A stretch of 5,776 nt of DNA, taken from the IMG/VR virus record IMGVR_UViG_3300015183_000014; one strand, written 5' to 3'. A program made the translations under genes and the position numbers. This DNA comes from a virus. Its lineage: Duplodnaviria; Heunggongvirae; Uroviricota; Caudoviricetes. Under the pieces are notes generated by a model, which was not told the origin of the DNA, did not search any database, and saw only the letters and a program-made list of their open reading frames with translations. Below, one piece after another: positions 848 through 5,710 of this stretch (positions are counted from its first letter, which is position 1; every line of letters begins with the position of its first letter).

Positions 848-923
848 AGTGGCGAACCTCCTGATTGGATTAGGCTTCGCCCTATGTTGAAGTGATTATG
901 TCTGATAAGCAGCTAAGCGCAGT

Positions 924-941
924 TGTACCGTTATTCACACA
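924..941 (-). promoter_or_regulatory. Candidate late-promoter activator site (TGT-N12-ACA dyad) upstream of FI
   Basis: Minus-strand sequence TGTGTGAATAACGGTACA is TGT-N12-ACA. It lies 13 bp downstream of the G stop and about 85 bp upstream of the FI ATG, in the only intergenic gap of the window (848-953). This is the partial dyad described for P2-family late promoters dependent on Ogr/Delta-type activators. A possible -10 (CATAAT, minus strand) follows; the transcription start is not determinable here. Confidence 0.55.
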
Positions 942-953
942 AAATGACGGTAT

Positions 954-1367
954 TTATCTGCTTGCAGGGAAAACAGGCCAAATAATATCAGGTGCGGTGC
1001 TGGTATCTGTTGCCGTCACCTCGTCTATGTAATCCAGCACGGCGTTAAGTTGGGTGGTTTCTTCTTGCATCAGTTTTCGCCCGGCCTGCAGCTTTAACTG
1101 AATCACGCTGATTTTGGCCATTGCTGCGTCTATCAGCGACTGTTTTTTCTGTTCAGCATCAGCTACCAGTTCATCATGAGAACGTTTCGGAGTGGGCGGC
1201 GCAGTAAATACCCCGTCTGAATACGCCCAGCCGATTCCGGGCTGCTCACTGATATCAGAAATATTAATGAGCTGTAGATTATCCGGCACAGTGAATTCAG
1301 CCTCGCCATCCCAGGCAATTACATTCACAACCATCCCATTTTCAATAACTGCATATGACGCATTCAT
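954..1367 (-). CDS. G: Tail fibre assembly chaperone (P2 gpG / Tfa family), 137 aa
   Basis: The ORF track gives 954..1391, but the likely start is the internal ATG at 1367..1365 (MNASYAVIENG...). That ATG overlaps the H stop (TAATG) and has a GAGGAG Shine-Dalgarno about 8 nt upstream. The C-terminal motif ...LNAVLDYIDEVTATDTSTAPDIIWPVFPA is typical of Tfa-family chaperones. Position immediately after the fibre gene matches P2. Confidence 0.8.
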   Translation of the reverse strand: MNASYAVIENGMVVNVIAWDGEAEFTVPDNLQLINISDISEQPGIGWAYSDGVFTAPPTPKRSHDELVADAEQKKQSLIDAAMAKISVIQLKLQAGRKLMQEETTQLNAVLDYIDEVTATDTSTAPDIIWPVFPASR

Positions 1368-3286
1368 TATGCAAACTCCTCGATAATACAAATCCCTGCA
1401 GCGCCTTTCCCGCCCGTCATACTGGCTCCGCTATAACCGGCATCGTATGCACCACCACCGCCTGAACCATATGCCTTACCGCTAACACCACCGCCAGCGC
1501 CTGCGCGTCCACCGCCTCCCCAGTACGATGCACCGCCTTCACCGCTGACGCCGATATTCCCGGACTGACCGTCGCCTCCATTTCCACCAATGATGTTGAT
1601 ACCGCCAGTACTTGGCACACCGCCGTTACCACCGTTCGTGTTTGTGACTCCTGATTTTCCACCACCTTCACCACCAGGGGCTATTACCGATCCGAACGAG
1701 CTATCACCGCCCTTGAGGCCGTTCGTCGCACTAACGCCGCCGGCCCCACCTGCGCCGATAGTGACAGGATAACTATCCTTCGTCAGGATCAGCGTGGTGA
1801 TTACTGTCCCACCTGCCCCGCCGCCAGCACCGAAAAACGTTTCATTATTGGATATAGCCTTGCAGCCGCCCCCTCCGCCACCGCCGCCCGTTATTGTGAC
1901 CCTGATCCGTTTTGTTCCTGGCGTCGGGGTGTACGTACCTGATGAGGTGAAAACCCGGGTATTCAGCCAGCGTCCAACGTATCCACTTGCATCGCTCAGA
2001 CCAAGATATTGAATAACCGCCTGTGTGCTTGCTTTATCCAGAATATTCCGTCCAACGTTAGTCAGGGTTGTCAGGCTGGCTGTATCATTCCCCGTAAAAT
2101 ACGGAAGTTTGTCTGCCGCAGTGGCAAGGCCTGCCAGTGCGGTCAGTGTGGCGTCGGCAGGTTGTTTTCCATTGGCAAGGTCATATACAGCCTTCACGGC
2201 TTTTGGTGTGGCAGCCTGCGTTTCTGACGTGCTGTTAGTGGCGCTGCTGAGTTGCACGGTACCTTTTACCGTCAGTGAAGCTGCAGGCACATCCGTTATC
2301 TGGCTCCACGGGTGCGTGTGACTGACAGGTGCCTTACCTGCTGCAAGGTCATATGCCGCCTTCACTGCCTTTGGTGTGGCAGCCTGCGTTTCTGACGTGC
2401 TGTTAGTGGCGCTGCTGAGTTGCACGGTGCCTTTTACCGTCAGTGAAGCTGCAGGCACATCCGTTATCTGATTCCACGGGTGTGTGTGACTGACAGGTGC
2501 CTTACCTGCTGCAAGGTCATATACAGCCTTCACTGCCTTTGGAGTGGCAGCCTGCGTTTCTGATGTGCTGTTAGTGGCGCTGCTGAGTTGCACGGTGCCT
2601 TTTACCGTCAGCGAGGCTGCAGGTACACCTGTTATCTGATTCCACGGGTGCGTGTGACTGACAGGTGCCTTACCTGCTGCAAGGTCATATACAGCCTTCA
2701 CTGCCTTCGGTGTTGCGGCCAGTATTTCGGATTCACTGTTGGTCGCACTGCTTAACTGAGTAAAACCTTTTGCGGTCAGCGAGGCGTCCGGGTGACGTCG
2801 TGACTGTTCGTGCTCTGATATTTTGTCATCCACATACTTGCGAGTTGCCAGTACTACAGCAGGGTCGATTTTCAGGGTGATATTGTCCGTGCTGCTGGTA
2901 ATCAACACCATACGCACGGTCTGGGTACGCCCGCTGCCTTCAGCCAGTTGCGGCTTATAGCTTTCCGGGCAGTTGCCCACGGCAATCAATGCTCCGGACT
3001 CATCAAACAGGCCCACTTCACGTATCCACCAACCACCCTCGTTTTCAGGGATCACCTGTTCAGCAATAATCTGGCTGCTGTTCTGCGGGTCAATGTACAG
3101 CATATTCAGCGCAGCCCGGCGTTTCTCATTCACCAGCCCAGTCTGCTTTGCGTCCGGCGTTGGCAATACTCCGCCGCCATCGCCGACCGCCATATGGGTA
3201 ATTTTTAAAGGCACACCGAGCGCGGCGGCGCTGGCAAGTTTCGCCGCGCCAATATCCGTCAGCAGGGTATAAAATTTTGTGCTCAT
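1367..3286 (-). CDS. H: Tail fibre protein (P2 gpH-like N-terminus and shaft; glycine-rich C-terminal tip), 639 aa
   Basis: The N-terminus MSTKFYTLLTDIGAAKLASAA...HMAVGDGGG...ESYKPQLAEGSGRTQTVRMV...YVDDKISEHEQSRRHPDASLTAKGFTQLSSATNS resembles P2 gpH. The tail-fibre repeat motif QLSSATNSTSETQAATPKAVKA is present in four copies. P2-like sequence continues through ...DATLTALAGLATAADKLPYFTGND...QYLGL, then diverges into a Gly-rich C-terminus. Start ATG overlaps the I stop (ATGA). Confidence 0.9.
   Translation of the reverse strand: MSTKFYTLLTDIGAAKLASAAALGVPLKITHMAVGDGGGVLPTPDAKQTGLVNEKRRAALNMLYIDPQNSSQIIAEQVIPENEGGWWIREVGLFDESGALIAVGNCPESYKPQLAEGSGRTQTVRMVLITSSTDNITLKIDPAVVLATRKYVDDKISEHEQSRRHPDASLTAKGFTQLSSATNSESEILAATPKAVKAVYDLAAGKAPVSHTHPWNQITGVPAASLTVKGTVQLSSATNSTSETQAATPKAVKAVYDLAAGKAPVSHTHPWNQITDVPAASLTVKGTVQLSSATNSTSETQAATPKAVKAAYDLAAGKAPVSHTHPWSQITDVPAASLTVKGTVQLSSATNSTSETQAATPKAVKAVYDLANGKQPADATLTALAGLATAADKLPYFTGNDTASLTTLTNVGRNILDKASTQAVIQYLGLSDASGYVGRWLNTRVFTSSGTYTPTPGTKRIRVTITGGGGGGGGCKAISNNETFFGAGGGAGGTVITTLILTKDSYPVTIGAGGAGGVSATNGLKGGDSSFGSVIAPGGEGGGKSGVTNTNGGNGGVPSTGGINIIGGNGGDGQSGNIGVSGEGGASYWGGGGRAGAGGGVSGKAYGSGGGGAYDAGYSGASMTGGKGAAGICIIEEFA
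1370..1888 (-). other. Glycine-rich C-terminal domain of the tail fibre (about 173 aa, presumptive receptor-binding tip)
   Basis: It begins with an uninterrupted GGGGGGGG and continues with GAGGGAGG, GAGGAGG, GGNGG and GGGG motifs interspersed with short hydrophobic and polar stretches; I count about 65 Gly in 173 residues. It ends ...GKGAAGICIIEEFA. This is unlike the P2 gpH C-terminus as I recall it. Confidence 0.6.
2165..2779 (-). repeat. In-frame 168-bp tandem repeat array (about 3.6 units of 56 aa) inside H
   Basis: The plus-strand motif ggtcatat(a/g)c(a/c)gccttcac recurs at 2179, 2347, 2515 and 2683, an exact 168-bp period. Units at 2276-2443 and 2444-2611 differ at only a few positions. 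Each unit encodes LTVKGTVQLSSATNSTSETQAATPKAVKAVYDLAAGKAPVSHTHPWNQITDVPAAS. The first unit is slightly diverged and the fourth is truncated. Confidence 0.9.
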
Positions 3287-3888
3287 GGATTCACTCTCAT
3301 TGTGTCAATAACATGGACCGCCCCGCCTTCATGCGCGGTGCCACCGGAAATAATCGTTTCGTTGATATACGGATAGATCGTGATTTCTTCGCCAAGATAG
3401 CTGGCGGCCCCCACCCAATGCGGACCGCTGGTCTGCAGATTGATGGACATGCCGATCATGTGACGGCTACATGGTTTGGCATCGCTTATCAGCCGCTCAA
3501 GTTCCAGATAGGTATCTTCAGTGATGCCCTGGTCCTGCACGCCGATATCCAGGCGAAACGTGCCCGGTGTTTCTCCGGTCTGCCACCACTCAATAATGCG
3601 GATCAGGAATCCGAACGGTTCCACCACCCGCCGCACGGCACTGGTGGTTCCTTTATGCTGATGAATATAAAAAGCATCCTTCACCACCTGACGTTTGACG
3701 CTTTCAGTCCAGCCCTCATCCCAGCGATCCACAGAGAACGCCCAGGCGAGATAAGGCAGGAAGCTGACCGGACAGGTCGCCGGATTCCACAAGTCACGCA
3801 GCGGCACCTGCAGATCAGAAATCCCGCTGCAGGTTTGCGCCAGTCGGCGCTCCAGTGGTGTTGAACCCGGTGGCAGCAGACTATTCAT
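3283..3888 (-). CDS. I: Baseplate assembly protein (P2 gpI-like), 201 aa
   Basis: The translation MNSLLPPGSTPLERRLAQ...LWNPATCP...LPYLAWAFSVDRWDEGW...GTFRLDIGV...ERLISDAKPCSRH resembles P2 gpI. A GGAGGA Shine-Dalgarno lies about 6 nt upstream of the ATG at 3888. The start overlaps the J 3' end by 8 nt and the stop overlaps the H start. Confidence 0.85.
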   Translation of the reverse strand: MNSLLPPGSTPLERRLAQTCSGISDLQVPLRDLWNPATCPVSFLPYLAWAFSVDRWDEGWTESVKRQVVKDAFYIHQHKGTTSAVRRVVEPFGFLIRIIEWWQTGETPGTFRLDIGVQDQGITEDTYLELERLISDAKPCSRHMIGMSINLQTSGPHWVGAASYLGEEITIYPYINETIISGGTAHEGGAVHVIDTMRVNP

Positions 3889-4789
3889 CCGTTCCTCCGT
3901 TAGTTACGTTCCACTGCGTACATGATGCCGCCTGTGTTTTGTTCAGGACCACATCCGCCAGAGGAGAAGCCAGCTCCACACGCTGCACACCCTCAACATG
4001 CAGGGCGGCAAAGATGGCGCTACGGCGAATATCCCGACCAAGACGCGTCTGACTGGCGATGTACTTCTGCAGGCTGGCTTTTGCCGCTGCCATTACCGGC
4101 TCTGCTTCCGGCCCCGGATAGAGAAAAATGGTGGCTTCCACGCGATACGGGATGATTTCTGCGCTGCGAACCGTCAGACGGTCAGCCACCGGGCGGACGT
4201 TCTCACTGTTCAGAGCTTTTTCCACCACGTCCAGCAGGTCTTTTTCTGCAGTTCCATCGCCTTCGCGGCTAAGGACAGTCAGCACCACCTCTGCAGGTGC
4301 CGGGCTGGTTGCACTGGCATCCGCTACCCGACCGTCGGCGCTTCGGGCATGAAATTCATAAGCTGCAGTTGGCCCCGCAACAGAAAGCCCTTCAAAGGCT
4401 GCAGGCACACGCAGGCGTAACGCTTCATCGCTTTCCATCACAGCTGCAACGGGCGGCACAGCATCATTATCAGCAGGCGTCACCGTCAGGCGTGTCACGT
4501 TGTAGTTGGCAGCGAGCTGGTCAAGATCGCCGCCCATCGCGTAAGCCACCATCACCGCCTGCGCGGCTTCGTTAACGCGCTGGCGCAGAAGCAACTCACG
4601 GTAAGCGTTCTCCTGCAACAATTTAGTGACGGGTTCAGATTCCAGTTCCAGCGTGCGGATCACGGCTTCCTGCTCATCTTTCGGATGAAGCGCAACAAAT
4701 TGGGCCTTGCGTTCGGCAAGCAGCGTCTCAAAGTCCGGCACATCCACAATCTGCGGTGCAGGCAACTGCGAAAGGTCAATCACTGCCAT
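3881..4789 (-). CDS. J: Baseplate wedge protein (P2 gpJ-like, Baseplate_J / T4 gp6-like), 302 aa
   Basis: The ORF track gives 3881..4828, but the likely start is the ATG at 4789 (MAVIDLSQLPAPQIVDVPDFETLLAERKA...), preceded by an AGGAG Shine-Dalgarno. That gives 302 aa, the length I recall for P2 gpJ. Conserved stretches include YRELLLRQRVNEAA, GRSADGRVAD, RPVADRLTV and ALHVEGVQRVELA. It overlaps the W 3' end by 14 nt. Confidence 0.85.
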   Translation of the reverse strand: MAVIDLSQLPAPQIVDVPDFETLLAERKAQFVALHPKDEQEAVIRTLELESEPVTKLLQENAYRELLLRQRVNEAAQAVMVAYAMGGDLDQLAANYNVTRLTVTPADNDAVPPVAAVMESDEALRLRVPAAFEGLSVAGPTAAYEFHARSADGRVADASATSPAPAEVVLTVLSREGDGTAEKDLLDVVEKALNSENVRPVADRLTVRSAEIIPYRVEATIFLYPGPEAEPVMAAAKASLQKYIASQTRLGRDIRRSAIFAALHVEGVQRVELASPLADVVLNKTQAASCTQWNVTNGGTDE

Positions 4790-5135
4790 TCTCTGCTCCT
4801 GTTGATACGGAAAGTGACACATGCACACCGTTATTCCGCCGCCCGGTCAGCTCCACCACCATAGAACCGTCAAAGTTGCTGTTGATGGTGATGGAATCCA
4901 GCGTCAGCCGTGGCTCCCAGCGACTCAGCGCCACATACACTGCCGACATGACCTGCAGGCGTAATGCCGGATTTTGTGGCTGATCTATTAAAACCGACAG
5001 GAGGGAACCATATTCCCGGCGGGCAATGCGGCTACCCTGCGGTGTCAGCAGAATGTCCCGCACCGACTGGCGCAGATGGTCAATATCAGTAATGGCTTTA
5101 CCGCTGGTATTGTTCATCCCGCTATAAAGCGTCAT
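4776..5135 (-). CDS. W: Baseplate protein (P2 gpW-like, gp25/GPW family), 119 aa
   Basis: The translation MTLYSGMNNTSGKAITDIDHLRQSVRDILLTPQGSRIARREYGSLLSVLIDQPQNPALRLQ...WEPRLTL resembles P2 gpW and gp25-like baseplate proteins. Start ATG overlaps the V stop (ATGA). Confidence 0.85.
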   Translation of the reverse strand: MTLYSGMNNTSGKAITDIDHLRQSVRDILLTPQGSRIARREYGSLLSVLIDQPQNPALRLQVMSAVYVALSRWEPRLTLDSITINSNFDGSMVVELTGRRNNGVHVSLSVSTGAENGSD

Positions 5136-5710
5136 ACCGGGCCTCCGGTTGTATCGCCGCCTTTCAGGACGCCGGTATGCTGATGCGCATCAACCACGAT
5201 CCCGTTAGAACTCATCGCTCCGCCGCCCTGAGTAACGCCACCATTGACCACCACTTCGCTGTTAATACGCGTGCACTCAGCCTCCAGCACAAACTCACTG
5301 GTTTTCAGGGTGATGTTATCGGCAGCCTCAATGACCATGGATTTGATGCCCCTGACATACCAGCGCCCGGTGGCAGGTTCGTATTCAAACCAGCCACCGT
5401 CAGGATGTTCTGTCACGCAGGCGTCCGCCGACGTCGACGGTGGTGCGAACTGATTCGAATAGACAGCGGGCAGCGCAAAGGCAGTTTCCAGATTGCCGCC
5501 CAGACTCAGCAGCACCACCTGCTCACCTTCCGATGGTCGCCACCATGTCCGGGCATTACCCGCGCGCAGCGTCAGCCAACTGATCCAGTTAGTTTCAAGG
5601 TCGCCCGTTTTCACCCGGCAAAGCCAATTCTCCCGGTCCACTTCGGTGACTACACCAGTGCGGATCAGGTTGGTGATAAGGCGCATGATTTCGGTTAATT
5701 GTGCGTTCAT
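5132..5710 (-). CDS. V: Baseplate central spike protein (P2 gpV-like), 192 aa
   Basis: The translation MNAQLTEIMRLITNLIRTGVVTEVDRENWLCRVKTGDLETNWISWLTLRAGNARTWWRPSEGEQV...GGAMSSNGIVVDAHQHTGVLKGGDTTGGPV resembles P2 gpV, including a C-terminal His-containing apex motif. It is the first gene of the operon, directly downstream of the dyad at 5757-5774. Confidence 0.85.
   Translation of the reverse strand: MNAQLTEIMRLITNLIRTGVVTEVDRENWLCRVKTGDLETNWISWLTLRAGNARTWWRPSEGEQVVLLSLGGNLETAFALPAVYSNQFAPPSTSADACVTEHPDGGWFEYEPATGRWYVRGIKSMVIEAADNITLKTSEFVLEAECTRINSEVVVNGGVTQGGGAMSSNGIVVDAHQHTGVLKGGDTTGGPV

What the first reader, a model, noticed from the sequence alone, without database searches (positions are those of the whole stretch)
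1370..1999. Tail fibre is a mosaic: P2-type body fused to a glycine-rich C-terminal tip
Similarity to P2 gpH runs from the N-terminus through ...TNVGRNILDKASTQAVIQYLGL (about aa 430, near nt 1999) and then stops. The last roughly 170 aa are about 35-40% glycine, starting with a Gly8 run and continuing with GGxGG-type motifs. The tip of a tail fibre is normally the host-range determinant, so this is probably a receptor-binding module different from P2's, exchanged at the usual recombination junction in H. I cannot assign its fold or receptor from sequence alone.
Basis: partly seen in the sequence, partly recalled or inferred. Interest (0 to 1): 0.6.

Follow-up and report, generated by a model that had tools for sequence, protein, structure and literature searches.

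The report
P2-type fibre with swapped glycine-rich tip
The tail fibre of this E. coli P2-like prophage has swapped P2's receptor-binding end for a widespread glycine-rich tip and its matching chaperone gene, which is an ordinary example of how phages trade host-recognition parts, and whose fold can now be named.

Summary
Gene H (1367-3286, minus strand, 639 aa) resembles P2 gpH up to the LGL motif (aa 428-430, nt 1997-2005). The last ~210 aa are unrelated to P2 and contain about 36% glycine.

The tip is a folded domain and is already catalogued:
- It matches Pfam PF21722 (Gly_rich_2).
- An AlphaFold2 model has pLDDT 96.

At DNA level the tip and the downstream tail-fibre-assembly gene form one 1.04-kb cassette (nt ~964-2005). 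The same cassette is attached to e14/StfP-type fibres (95% identity), to P1-like phage-plasmid fibres (91%) and to jumbo phage Goslar (67%). The junction lies where phage Mu has its gix inversion site.

The same chimeric junction is present in 148 of 5,426 complete E. coli genomes, so it is not an assembly artefact.

The receptor remains unknown. This is a new member of a known kind and of modest interest.

The parts
1367..3286 (-). Tail fibre gene H, 639 aa, whole ORF including the stop codon.
   Evidence: ORF list. The RefSeq copy, 99.1% identical over the window, is annotated 'tail fiber protein' WP_134391605.1. PHROG 6202 matches both ends of H: aa 1-282 to profile 1-270, and the tip to profile 434-636 of 636.
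2837..3286 (-). N-terminal tail-collar/baseplate-attachment domain, aa 1-150. P2-type.
   Evidence: Pfam PF12571, E 1.7e-64, matching profile positions 1-150 of 150. Aligns with P2 gpH from residue 1.
2162..2782 (-). Shaft made of four 'phage tail fibre repeat' units, aa ~169-375. It includes a 168-nt tandem array at 2175-2720.
   Evidence: Pfam PF03406, 4 stretches, E 6.7e-74. Tandem Repeats Finder gives period 168, 3.2 copies, 94% matches. E. coli HS carries one unit fewer.
1997..2161 (-). Conserved pre-junction adaptor, aa 376-430 (PADATLTALAGL...VIQYLGL). This is the last segment shared with P2 gpH.
   Evidence: BLASTP with P2 gpH. DNA is 77.6% identical to P2 H over nt 2000-2155. The same segment precedes the tip in unrelated 355-aa fibres such as P0003.
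1991..2016 (-). Recombination junction. The 26-mer TTATTCAATATCTTGGTCTGAGCGAT encodes (V)IQYLGLSD and sits at the position of the Mu gix site. It is degenerate, matching gix at 16 of 26 positions. The left half resembles P2 H and the right half resembles the P1-like cassette.
   Evidence: Coordinates. Comparison with Mu gix, P2 H, StfP, P1-like and Goslar junctions. Mu gix sequence verified at both annotated G-segment boundaries. It is the only copy in the window.
1370..1996 (-). C-terminal tip, aa 431-639. Predicted fold is a TNF-like beta-sandwich plus a glycine-rich lattice. The Pfam PF21722 match covers aa 448-636 (nt 1379-1945).
1865..1888 (-). Gly8 run, aa 467-474. It is the first and most conserved glycine-rich motif and follows directly after a beta-strand.
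   Evidence: Glycine frequency in these columns is 80-90% across 134 family representatives. In the model it follows strand 31-37 of the tip.
954..1367 (-). Tail fibre assembly (chaperone) gene tfa, 137 aa from the ATG. The start overlaps the H stop codon (TAATG).
   Evidence: Pfam PF02413 Caudo_TAP, E 3e-21. RefSeq annotation. Overlap shown. AF2 model has beta strands at 3-55 and two helices at 64-119. Only 26% identical to P2 gpG.
964..2005 (-). Mobile cassette of tip plus tfa, about 1.04 kb, shared as DNA with fibres of unrelated phage types.
   Evidence: blastn gives 94.9% identity to the StfP-type locus L003 (976-2005), 91.2% to the P1-like phage-plasmid L004 (967-2005) and 67% to phage Goslar L005 (964-2010). 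Contexts are shown.

Best explanation
Gene H encodes a trimeric P2-type tail fibre. Its baseplate-attachment domain, repeat shaft and pre-junction adaptor are P2-like. The distal receptor-binding end of P2 gpH (P2 residues ~390-669) has been replaced by a C-terminal 'TG'-type tip.

The tip is a TNF-like beta-sandwich. About six long loops leave the sandwich and return to it. Each leg of a loop is a glycine-rich motif in an extended polyglycine-II-like conformation. Together there are about twelve such motifs, packed into a hydrogen-bonded lattice. The glycine motifs form the conserved scaffold. The short non-glycine segments between them, which vary and carry indels across the family, form the exposed distal surface. 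By analogy with solved and mutated homologues, that surface contacts the host receptor.

The tip came with its own Caudo_TAP chaperone gene as a single 1.04-kb cassette.
- The upstream crossover lies in the LGL-coding sequence, which corresponds to the Din-invertase crossover site (gix/cix/pix) of invertible tail-fibre segments.
- The downstream crossover lies in the conserved 3' end of tfa.

Here the arrangement is fixed and does not invert.

What is shown: the mosaic structure, the junction, the cassette boundaries, family membership and the predicted fold. What is inferred: the trimeric state, the receptor-binding role, the chaperone role and the recombination route. The receptor is unknown. 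LPS is the best guess, from a Klebsiella homologue.
For: Family and fold:
- Pfam PF21722 at aa 448-636, 53.3 bits against a cut-off of 24.3.
- AF2 model with pLDDT 96.4 and pTM 0.91.
- A weak but end-to-end sequence alignment to Pam3 gp24 residues 78-275.

Function of homologues:
- The Pam3 structure paper describes a TNF-like plus glycine-rich domain with 12 glycine-rich motifs, a variable distal tip proposed to bind the receptor, and a two-domain chaperone (PMC9608196).
- In a Klebsiella phage homologue of gp24, host-adaptation mutations lie in the glycine-rich domain. The purified protein also blocks LPS-triggered DNA ejection (PMC12671077).

Family-wide pattern:
- Glycine columns are 80-90% conserved. 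Inter-motif segments have high entropy and indels.
- In 134 of 149 representatives the domain is complete and ends within 5 residues of the C-terminus.

Cassette and junction:
- Cassette boundaries at 964/976-2005/2010. P2 similarity ends at nt 2000.
- The junction corresponds to Mu gix and to the e14 P-segment repeat (PMC12529663).
- The tip is fused to at least five different fibre bodies.
- The Tfa differs from P2 gpG but is about 62% identical to Goslar's Tfa, while the Goslar tip is 70% identical.
- The last ~170 nt of tfa are 80-83% identical to many other tfa genes, giving a homology patch for the downstream crossover.
- The same junction occurs in 148 complete E. coli genomes.
Against: - No experiment addresses this protein or any E. 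coli homologue. Receptor binding is inferred from distant relatives (30-33% identity).
- The structure is a monomer prediction. The trimer and the chaperone complex were not modelled.
- Among E. coli alleles the variable positions cluster in the beta-strand part of the tip (residues 66-75, 94-105, 134-140). They do not cluster in the inter-motif loops. This does not fit a simple 'distal loops set specificity' picture at short evolutionary range.
- The junction site matches gix at only 16 of 26 positions. Part of that match is forced by the conserved protein motif. Site-specific and homologous recombination therefore cannot be told apart.
Confidence: 0.8

Rival explanations
1. The glycine-rich end does not bind the receptor itself. 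It acts as a scaffold or docking platform, and the Tfa stays attached to the mature fibre and supplies or completes receptor recognition. This is what is reported for phage Mu Tfa. It also resembles the way a separate adhesin (gp38) caps the fibre in T2/S16-type phages.
For: - A Caudo_TAP gene always travels with the tip in the E. coli contexts examined.
- According to the introduction of PMC9608196, the Tfa proteins of Mu and Ur-lambda remain in the virion.
- The N-terminal half of this Tfa is cassette-specific.
Against: - The Pam3 authors argue that chaperone gp25 covers the sites proposed to recognise the host. They conclude it should be released before the virion matures (PMC9608196).
[quoted passage not shown] The purified fibre protein alone competes with LPS-triggered ejection (PMC12671077).
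- At least one distant family member has no tfa gene next to it (L008).
Confidence: 0.12
2. The glycine-rich stretch is not a real domain. It would be a low-complexity disordered tail, a frameshifted read-through or an assembly artefact in a repetitive region.
For: - The composition is extreme, with 36% glycine and a Gly8 run.
- BLAST's low-complexity filter hides most matches.
- A few database relatives are visibly frameshifted, for example P0134 and P0158.
Against: - The ORF is intact and ends in the family-wide motif G-I-x-I-I-E-E-F-A.
- The AF2 model has pLDDT 96 with no disordered segment.
- The same sequence occurs in 270 complete genomes, and the same junction in 148.
- There are 1,128 cluster representatives at E<=1e-10.
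Confidence: 0.01
3. The tip is an enzymatic or toxin-type module and not an adhesin. Candidates are a carbohydrate kinase, as many database entries name the 308-aa relatives, or a colicin/pyocin-like glycine-rich translocation domain.
For: - The legacy NCBI name 'carbohydrate kinase' is attached to dozens of close relatives.
- Colicin translocation domains are glycine-rich (general knowledge).
Against: - No kinase, colicin or pyocin family appears in Pfam or NCBIfam.
- No such protein appears among the sequence or fold matches to solved structures.
- The best fold matches are phage fibre tips.
- The domain sits at the distal end of tail fibres in every context examined.
Confidence: 0.02

Closest known systems
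Cyanophage Pam3 tail fibre gp24 with chaperone gp25 (PDB 7YFW/7YPX; PMC9608196)
   Same: - About 12 glycine motifs, with variable segments between them.
- Same Pfam family.
- A small chaperone with beta strands in the N-terminal part and helices in the C-terminal part, with the domain boundary near residues 55/64 in both proteins (PMC9608196).
   Different: - Pam3 gp24 is a minimal 280-aa fibre whose tip sits on a short alpha-helical stalk.
- Here the tip ends a 430-aa P2-type collar and repeat shaft.
- The hosts are a cyanobacterium and E. coli.
Bacteriophage P2 gpH / gpG
   Same: - Operon order V-W-J-I-H-G.
- N-terminal PF12571 domain, PF03406 repeats and the DATLTALAGL...YLGL adaptor. 53% identity over aa 1-438.
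   Different: - P2 residues ~390-669, its own distal end, are absent and replaced.
- The shaft has two extra repeat units.
- The chaperone is only 26% identical to gpG.
- There is no Z/fun gene after G.
Invertible tail-fibre segments: Mu G (gix/Gin), P1 C (cix/Cin), e14 P (pix/PinE)
   Same: - The constant/variable boundary lies at the same LGL-coding position.
- The same tip plus tfa cassette sits behind the StfP constant part, at a site containing the e14 P-segment repeat TTGGTTTGGGAGA (PMC12529663).
- It also sits next to a decayed recombinase gene on a P1-like phage-plasmid.
   Different: - In the window there is no invertase, no second inverted site and no alternative tip.
- The site is degenerate, matching gix at 16 of 26 positions.
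- The arrangement is therefore a fixed fusion and not a switch.
Mycobacteriophage Bxb1 gp33 'tail wing brush' and gp29 tail spike subdomain (PDB 9D93)
   Different: - These are parts of a siphophage tail tip and not the end of a contractile-tail fibre.
- The host has a mycobacterial envelope.
gp38 adhesin of T2/S16-type phages (PDB 6F45)
   Same: Conserved glycine-rich motifs form a polyglycine-II lattice. Hypervariable segments between them bind the receptor. This is the same design principle (PMC9608196; PMC12032242).
   Different: - gp38 is a separate monomeric protein that caps gp37.
- It has a three-layer lattice of 10 motifs and no TNF-like sandwich (PMC9608196).
ALK / LTK extracellular TNF-like plus glycine-rich ('TG') domain (PDB 7LIR, 7LS0, 7NX3)
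   Different: - These are animal receptor tyrosine kinases that bind protein cytokines.
- Sequence identity is 20-24%.
- Nothing here bears on common descent.

Membership tests
Pfam PF21722 (Gly_rich_2) / Pam3 gp24-type fibre tip | The profile HMM score exceeds the curated gathering threshold. | tested here: met
   53.3 bits against 24.3, aa 448-636, profile positions 2-224 of 226. The tip alone scores 56.6 bits.
Pfam PF21722 (Gly_rich_2) / Pam3 gp24-type fibre tip | The fold is a TNF-like beta-sandwich with a lattice of extended glycine-rich motifs. | tested here: met
   [not shown]
Pfam PF21722 (Gly_rich_2) / Pam3 gp24-type fibre tip | About twelve conserved glycine-rich motifs are separated by variable segments. 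| tested here: met
   The conservation profile of 134 representatives shows about 12 glycine blocks at 80-90% Gly. High entropy and indels lie between them. The count is my own reading of that profile.
Pfam PF21722 (Gly_rich_2) / Pam3 gp24-type fibre tip | The domain lies at the distal (C-terminal) end of a tail fibre. | tested here: met
   It ends at the last residue of H. In 134 of 149 representatives it ends within 5 residues of the C-terminus.
Pfam PF21722 (Gly_rich_2) / Pam3 gp24-type fibre tip | A cognate trimeric chaperone of the gp25/Tfa type is needed for assembly. | tested here: inconclusive
   [not shown]
Pfam PF21722 (Gly_rich_2) / Pam3 gp24-type fibre tip | The tip binds the host receptor. 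| not testable with these tools
   Only indirect evidence exists, from homologues (PMC9608196, PMC12671077).
P2 gpH-type tail fibre | An N-terminal PF12571 collar domain and PF03406 repeats, encoded between baseplate gene I and a tfa gene. | tested here: met
   PF12571 at E 1.7e-64 and PF03406 x4. Neighbours are Tail_P2_I, Baseplate_J, GPW_gp25 and Phage_base_V. RefSeq annotation agrees.
P2 gpH-type tail fibre | A P2-type distal receptor-binding region (P2 residues ~390-669). | tested here: not met
   BLASTP similarity ends at aa 438 here and residue 389 in P2. No further significant segment was found.
Din-invertase-controlled invertible tail-fibre segment (Mu G, P1 C, e14 P) | Two inverted crossover sites flank alternative tip plus tfa sets, with an adjacent invertase gene. 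| tested here: not met
   The window has a single degenerate site. The sheath gene follows tfa. No invertase is annotated in the 30 kb around the near-identical copy.
gp38 adhesin (T2/S16 type) | A separate monomeric adhesin whose N-terminal domain attaches to gp37, with a beta-helix and a three-layer polyglycine sandwich. | tested here: not met
   [not shown]
Colicin/pyocin glycine-rich translocation domain | Sequence or fold similarity to bacteriocin T domains. | tested here: not met
   No such family in Pfam. No such chain in the PDB sequence or fold searches.

The most novel reading that the evidence does not exclude
The Din-invertase crossover site embedded in the LGL-coding sequence may work as a universal docking point between phages. 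It would let serine invertases (Gin/Cin/Pin), and not only homologous recombination, move the tip plus chaperone cassette between P2-like, Mu/e14-like, P1-like and jumbo-phage fibres. The hybrid half-sites at nt 1991-2016 would be the scar of such an event. In addition, the E. coli TG tip may recognise a receptor class not yet linked to P2-like phages. The allelic hotspots on its TNF-like face would then mark a second, lateral binding surface like the ligand-binding face of ALK/LTK.
Probability: 0.15. Interest if true: 0.55.

Novelty: new member of a known kind. Interest (0 to 1): 0.25.

Why it matters
It gives a concrete structural and modular description of a host-range determinant carried by about 3% of complete E. 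coli genomes, including the commensal reference strain HS. The description covers the fold, the exact swap boundaries at nt ~964 and ~2005, and the chaperone that has to move with the tip.

This is useful for engineering P2-based phages, tailocins or delivery particles. It also helps predict prophage host range. It adds no new principle. Horizontal exchange of fibre tips at this junction has been textbook knowledge since the P2/Mu/P1 comparisons of the early 1990s (my own knowledge). The tip family is already in Pfam and has a solved representative.

Tried and rejected
- tblastn of the tip alone against 50,697 phage records found only Goslar, and only the first 111 residues. BLAST's low-complexity filter masks the glycine-rich part. 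A DNA search was used instead.
- The search for related loci on the GTDB genomes failed twice. The alignment had no stretch conserved enough to search with. With the single protein, 114 pattern hits were found but none was confirmed by tblastn, probably for the same masking reason. No taxonomic survey of genomes was obtained.
- NCBIfam has no model for the tip, for StfP-type relatives or for the Tfa.
- The look-up of a 1,078-aa relative (P0166) found no contig.
- The idea that the window holds an active invertible segment was rejected. There is one site only, no invertase and no alternative tip.
- The idea of a colicin/pyocin T domain or a kinase was rejected.
- A literature search for a described P2-like fibre with a glycine-rich tip found nothing relevant.
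Full report
**What the window is**

All long ORFs lie on the minus strand and form the P2 baseplate and fibre operon:
- V (5132-5710; Phage_base_V plus Apex motif)
- W (4776-5135; GPW_gp25)
- J (3881-4828 as an ORF; Baseplate_J)
- I (3283-3888; Tail_P2_I)
- H (1367-3286; 639 aa)
- a Caudo_TAP tail-fibre-assembly gene (954-1367)
- the start of the sheath gene (from 847)

The window is 99.1% identical to a prophage beside ssrA in E. coli 47-1826. It is 96% identical to one in the commensal strain HS.

**Checking the observation**

The finding's coordinates and numbers hold.
- The motif TNVGRNILDKASTQAVIQYLGL is aa 409-430. Nt 1999 begins the Leu430 codon.
- BLASTP with P2 gpH aligns aa 1-438 to P2 residues 1-389 at 53% identity (E 2e-111). 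Nothing follows.
- At DNA level, similarity to P2 H stops at nt 2000.
- The Gly8 run is aa 467-474. Glycine is 36% of aa 463-639 and 6% of the rest.
- One refinement: the body is P2-like but not colinear with P2. It carries four PF03406 repeat units, including a 168-nt tandem array of 3.2 copies at 2175-2720.

**What the tip is**

It is not disordered low-complexity sequence.
- It matches Pfam PF21722 (Gly_rich_2) across aa 448-636, well above the curated threshold.
- PHROG 6202, a tail-fibre family, matches both ends of H: aa 1-282 at the start of the profile, and the tip at profile positions 434-636 of 636.
- An exhaustive HMMER search of 1.84 billion cluster representatives found 7,559 relatives at E<=1e-3 and 1,128 at E<=1e-10.
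- In 134 of the best 149, the domain is complete and ends within five residues of the protein's C-terminus, typically with ...G-I-x-I-I-E-E-F/Y-A/S.
- Of 99 aligned members, 95 hit PF21722. Almost none share the P2-type N-terminus. The domain is therefore a terminal module placed on many different bodies.

**The fold**

An AlphaFold2 model built from that alignment is very confident, with mean pLDDT 96.4 and pTM 0.91.

| Search | Match | Score |
|---|---|---|
| Foldseek, PDB | Pam3 fibre 7ypx_A | E 2.6e-9, TM 0.76 |
| Foldseek, PDB | Bxb1 tail-tip chains, then ALK/LTK 'TG' domains | lower ranks |

A direct phmmer search of PDB sequences already gave a weak, composition-biased but end-to-end alignment to Pam3 gp24 residues 78-275.

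The Pam3 paper (PMC9608196) describes this architecture:
- a TNF-like beta-sandwich;
- six loops, each with two glycine-rich motifs, stacked into a four-layer lattice;
- a less conserved distal end proposed to bind the receptor;
- a chaperone, gp25, with an N-terminal beta-sandwich that grips the tip and a C-terminal helical trimerisation domain.

A 2026 survey independently groups Pam3, Bxb1 gp33/gp29 and S16 gp38 as polyproline-II-type glycine bundles (PMC13243192).

**Conservation pattern**

Across 134 representatives there are about twelve blocks of columns with 80-90% glycine. These include the Gly8 run, GAGGGAGG, GAGGAGG, PGGxGGG, GGNGG, GGxGGDG, GxGG, GGGGR, GSGGGG and GGxGAxG. The segments between them have high entropy and carry the indels. 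This is the scaffold-plus-variable-loop design of Pam3 gp24 and of the gp38 adhesins.

Among close E. coli alleles (72-99% identity) the picture differs. Variable positions cluster at tip residues 66-75, 94-105, 111-116 and 134-140, mostly in or next to beta-strands. I have no explanation for this. It may reflect recombination tracts or a lateral binding face.

**The mosaic at DNA level**

A blastn of the window against fetched loci shows one continuous block.

| Locus | Window range | Identity |
|---|---|---|
| StfP-type prophage fibre locus | 976-2005 | 94.9% |
| ~93-kb P1-like phage-plasmid (darA genes, decayed recombinase gene next to the fibre) | 967-2005 | 91.2% |
| Jumbo phage Goslar | 964-2010 | 67% |

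The block covers the tip from the LGL codons onward and nearly the whole tfa gene, whose stop codon is at 954-956. The exchanged unit is therefore tip plus chaperone, about 1.04 kb.

Consistent with this:
- The Tfa is only 26% identical to P2 gpG.
- It is about 62% identical over its full length to Goslar's Tfa, while the tips are 70% identical.
- The last ~170 nt of tfa are 80-83% identical to the tfa genes of many unrelated phages such as HK97, SfIV and P2-likes. This gives a homology patch for the downstream crossover.

Protein hits show the same tip behind at least five bodies:
- P2-type H
- the 98-aa StfP constant part
- a 145-aa MAKNDFKAF... body
- a 134-aa MNRSDSPKK... body
- long P1 gpS-like fibres

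**The junction**

In phage Mu, the annotated G-segment boundaries carry TTATCCAAAACCTCGGTTTACAGGAA and its reverse complement. In frame this encodes IQNLGLQE. Matches at the equivalent position are as follows.

| Fibre | Sequence | Match to gix |
|---|---|---|
| P2 H | TTATCGAATATCTCGGTTTACAGGAA | 23 of 26 |
| StfP-type locus | CTCTCGAAAACCTTGGTTTGGGAGAT | 17 of 26 |
| Window (nt 1991-2016) | TTATTCAATATCTTGGTCTGAGCGAT | 16 of 26 |

The StfP-type sequence contains the e14 P-segment inverted repeat reported as TTGGTTTGGGAGAAGG (PMC12529663). In the window's site the left half resembles P2 H and the right half resembles the P1-like cassette.

The 'usual recombination junction' is thus the former crossover site of Din-family invertases. 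The window holds no second site, no invertase and no alternative tip, so this fibre is a fixed fusion. The data cannot decide whether the exchange used an invertase or short-homology recombination. Part of the DNA match is also forced by the conserved LGL peptide.

**How common it is**

- The tip DNA occurs in 270 of 5,426 complete E. coli genomes: 277 chromosomal places and 76 on plasmids.
- A probe spanning the P2-body/tip junction is covered at >=80% in 148 genomes.
- Fifty PLSDB plasmids, all from E. coli and 48 of them non-mobilizable, carry the cassette.
- Among 50,697 deposited phage genomes only Goslar has the whole cassette.
- No phage record matches H over 80% of its length, although BLAST's masking of the tip contributes to that.
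- A literature search found no description of a P2-like fibre with this tip.

**The chaperone**

**Mechanism, with its basis**

Shown:
- the mosaic
- the junction
- the cassette
- family membership
- the predicted fold

Inferred from homologues:
- The fibre is a trimer whose three chains each end in a TG domain.
- The glycine lattice is a rigid scaffold presenting variable loops.
- The tip binds the receptor.
- The Tfa holds the tip during folding.

The receptor is unknown. In a Klebsiella phage homologue of gp24, mutations in the glycine-rich domain restored infection of an LPS mutant. The purified protein also blocked LPS-triggered DNA ejection (PMC12671077). LPS is therefore the best guess. 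gp38-type lattices bind porins, so a protein receptor is not excluded.

**Verdict**

The fold is now assigned and the exchanged unit is defined to within a few bases. The tip family is already in Pfam and has a solved representative, and tip swapping at this junction is long established. This is a new member of a known kind, of modest interest.

Noticed in passing
window 2175-2720: The H shaft contains a 168-nt (56-aa) tandem array of 3.2 copies at 94% identity. The E. coli HS copy of H is 1752 nt, exactly one unit shorter. Fibre length therefore varies by whole repeat units between otherwise 96%-identical prophages.
   Followed up: partly
window 1370-1996 (tip residues 66-75, 94-105, 111-116, 134-140): Among 118 close E. 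coli alleles of the tip, variable positions cluster in the beta-strand (TNF-like) part. Family-wide, it is the inter-glycine-motif loops that vary. About two main allele types are present. This is unexplained.
   Followed up: partly
relatives P0008-P0116 (308 aa): Dozens of fibres made of the StfP constant part plus the glycine-rich tip carry the NCBI/nr name 'carbohydrate kinase'. No kinase family or fold was found, so this looks like a propagated misannotation.
   Followed up: partly
window 848-953: Only a 106-nt spacer separates tfa from the sheath gene. P2 has the lysogenic-conversion gene Z/fun and a terminator at this position. The late promoter of the sheath operon presumably lies in this spacer. 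It was not scanned.
   Followed up: no
window 1200-1950: GC skew is strongly negative (-0.26 to -0.36). Antisense ORFs on the plus strand (1590-1772, 1794-2012) encode proline-rich peptides. Both are by-products of the GGN glycine codons on the minus strand and are not genes.
   Followed up: yes
window 4789-4828: The mechanical ORF for baseplate gene J starts at a GTG at 4828 (315 aa). RefSeq annotates a 909-nt gene starting at 4789. The true start was not examined.
   Followed up: no
L001 26567-29294 (outside the window, same prophage in strain 47-1826): Two non-P2 genes lie beside the portal gene: a 552-aa hypothetical protein and a protein with a dsDNA nuclease domain. P2-like phages often carry variable anti-phage cargo at this position (the cargo interpretation is from my own knowledge).
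   Followed up: no
L004 5298-5465: On the P1-like phage-plasmid, the cassette lies next to a frameshifted, truncated recombinase gene. Only one tip plus tfa set is present. This looks like a decayed C-segment inversion system frozen with the glycine-rich tip expressed.
   Followed up: no
L008 4001-4864: A distant family member (287 aa, 50% identity) follows Mu-type baseplate genes in a metagenomic contig and has no Caudo_TAP gene after it. Not all members keep an adjacent chaperone.
   Followed up: no
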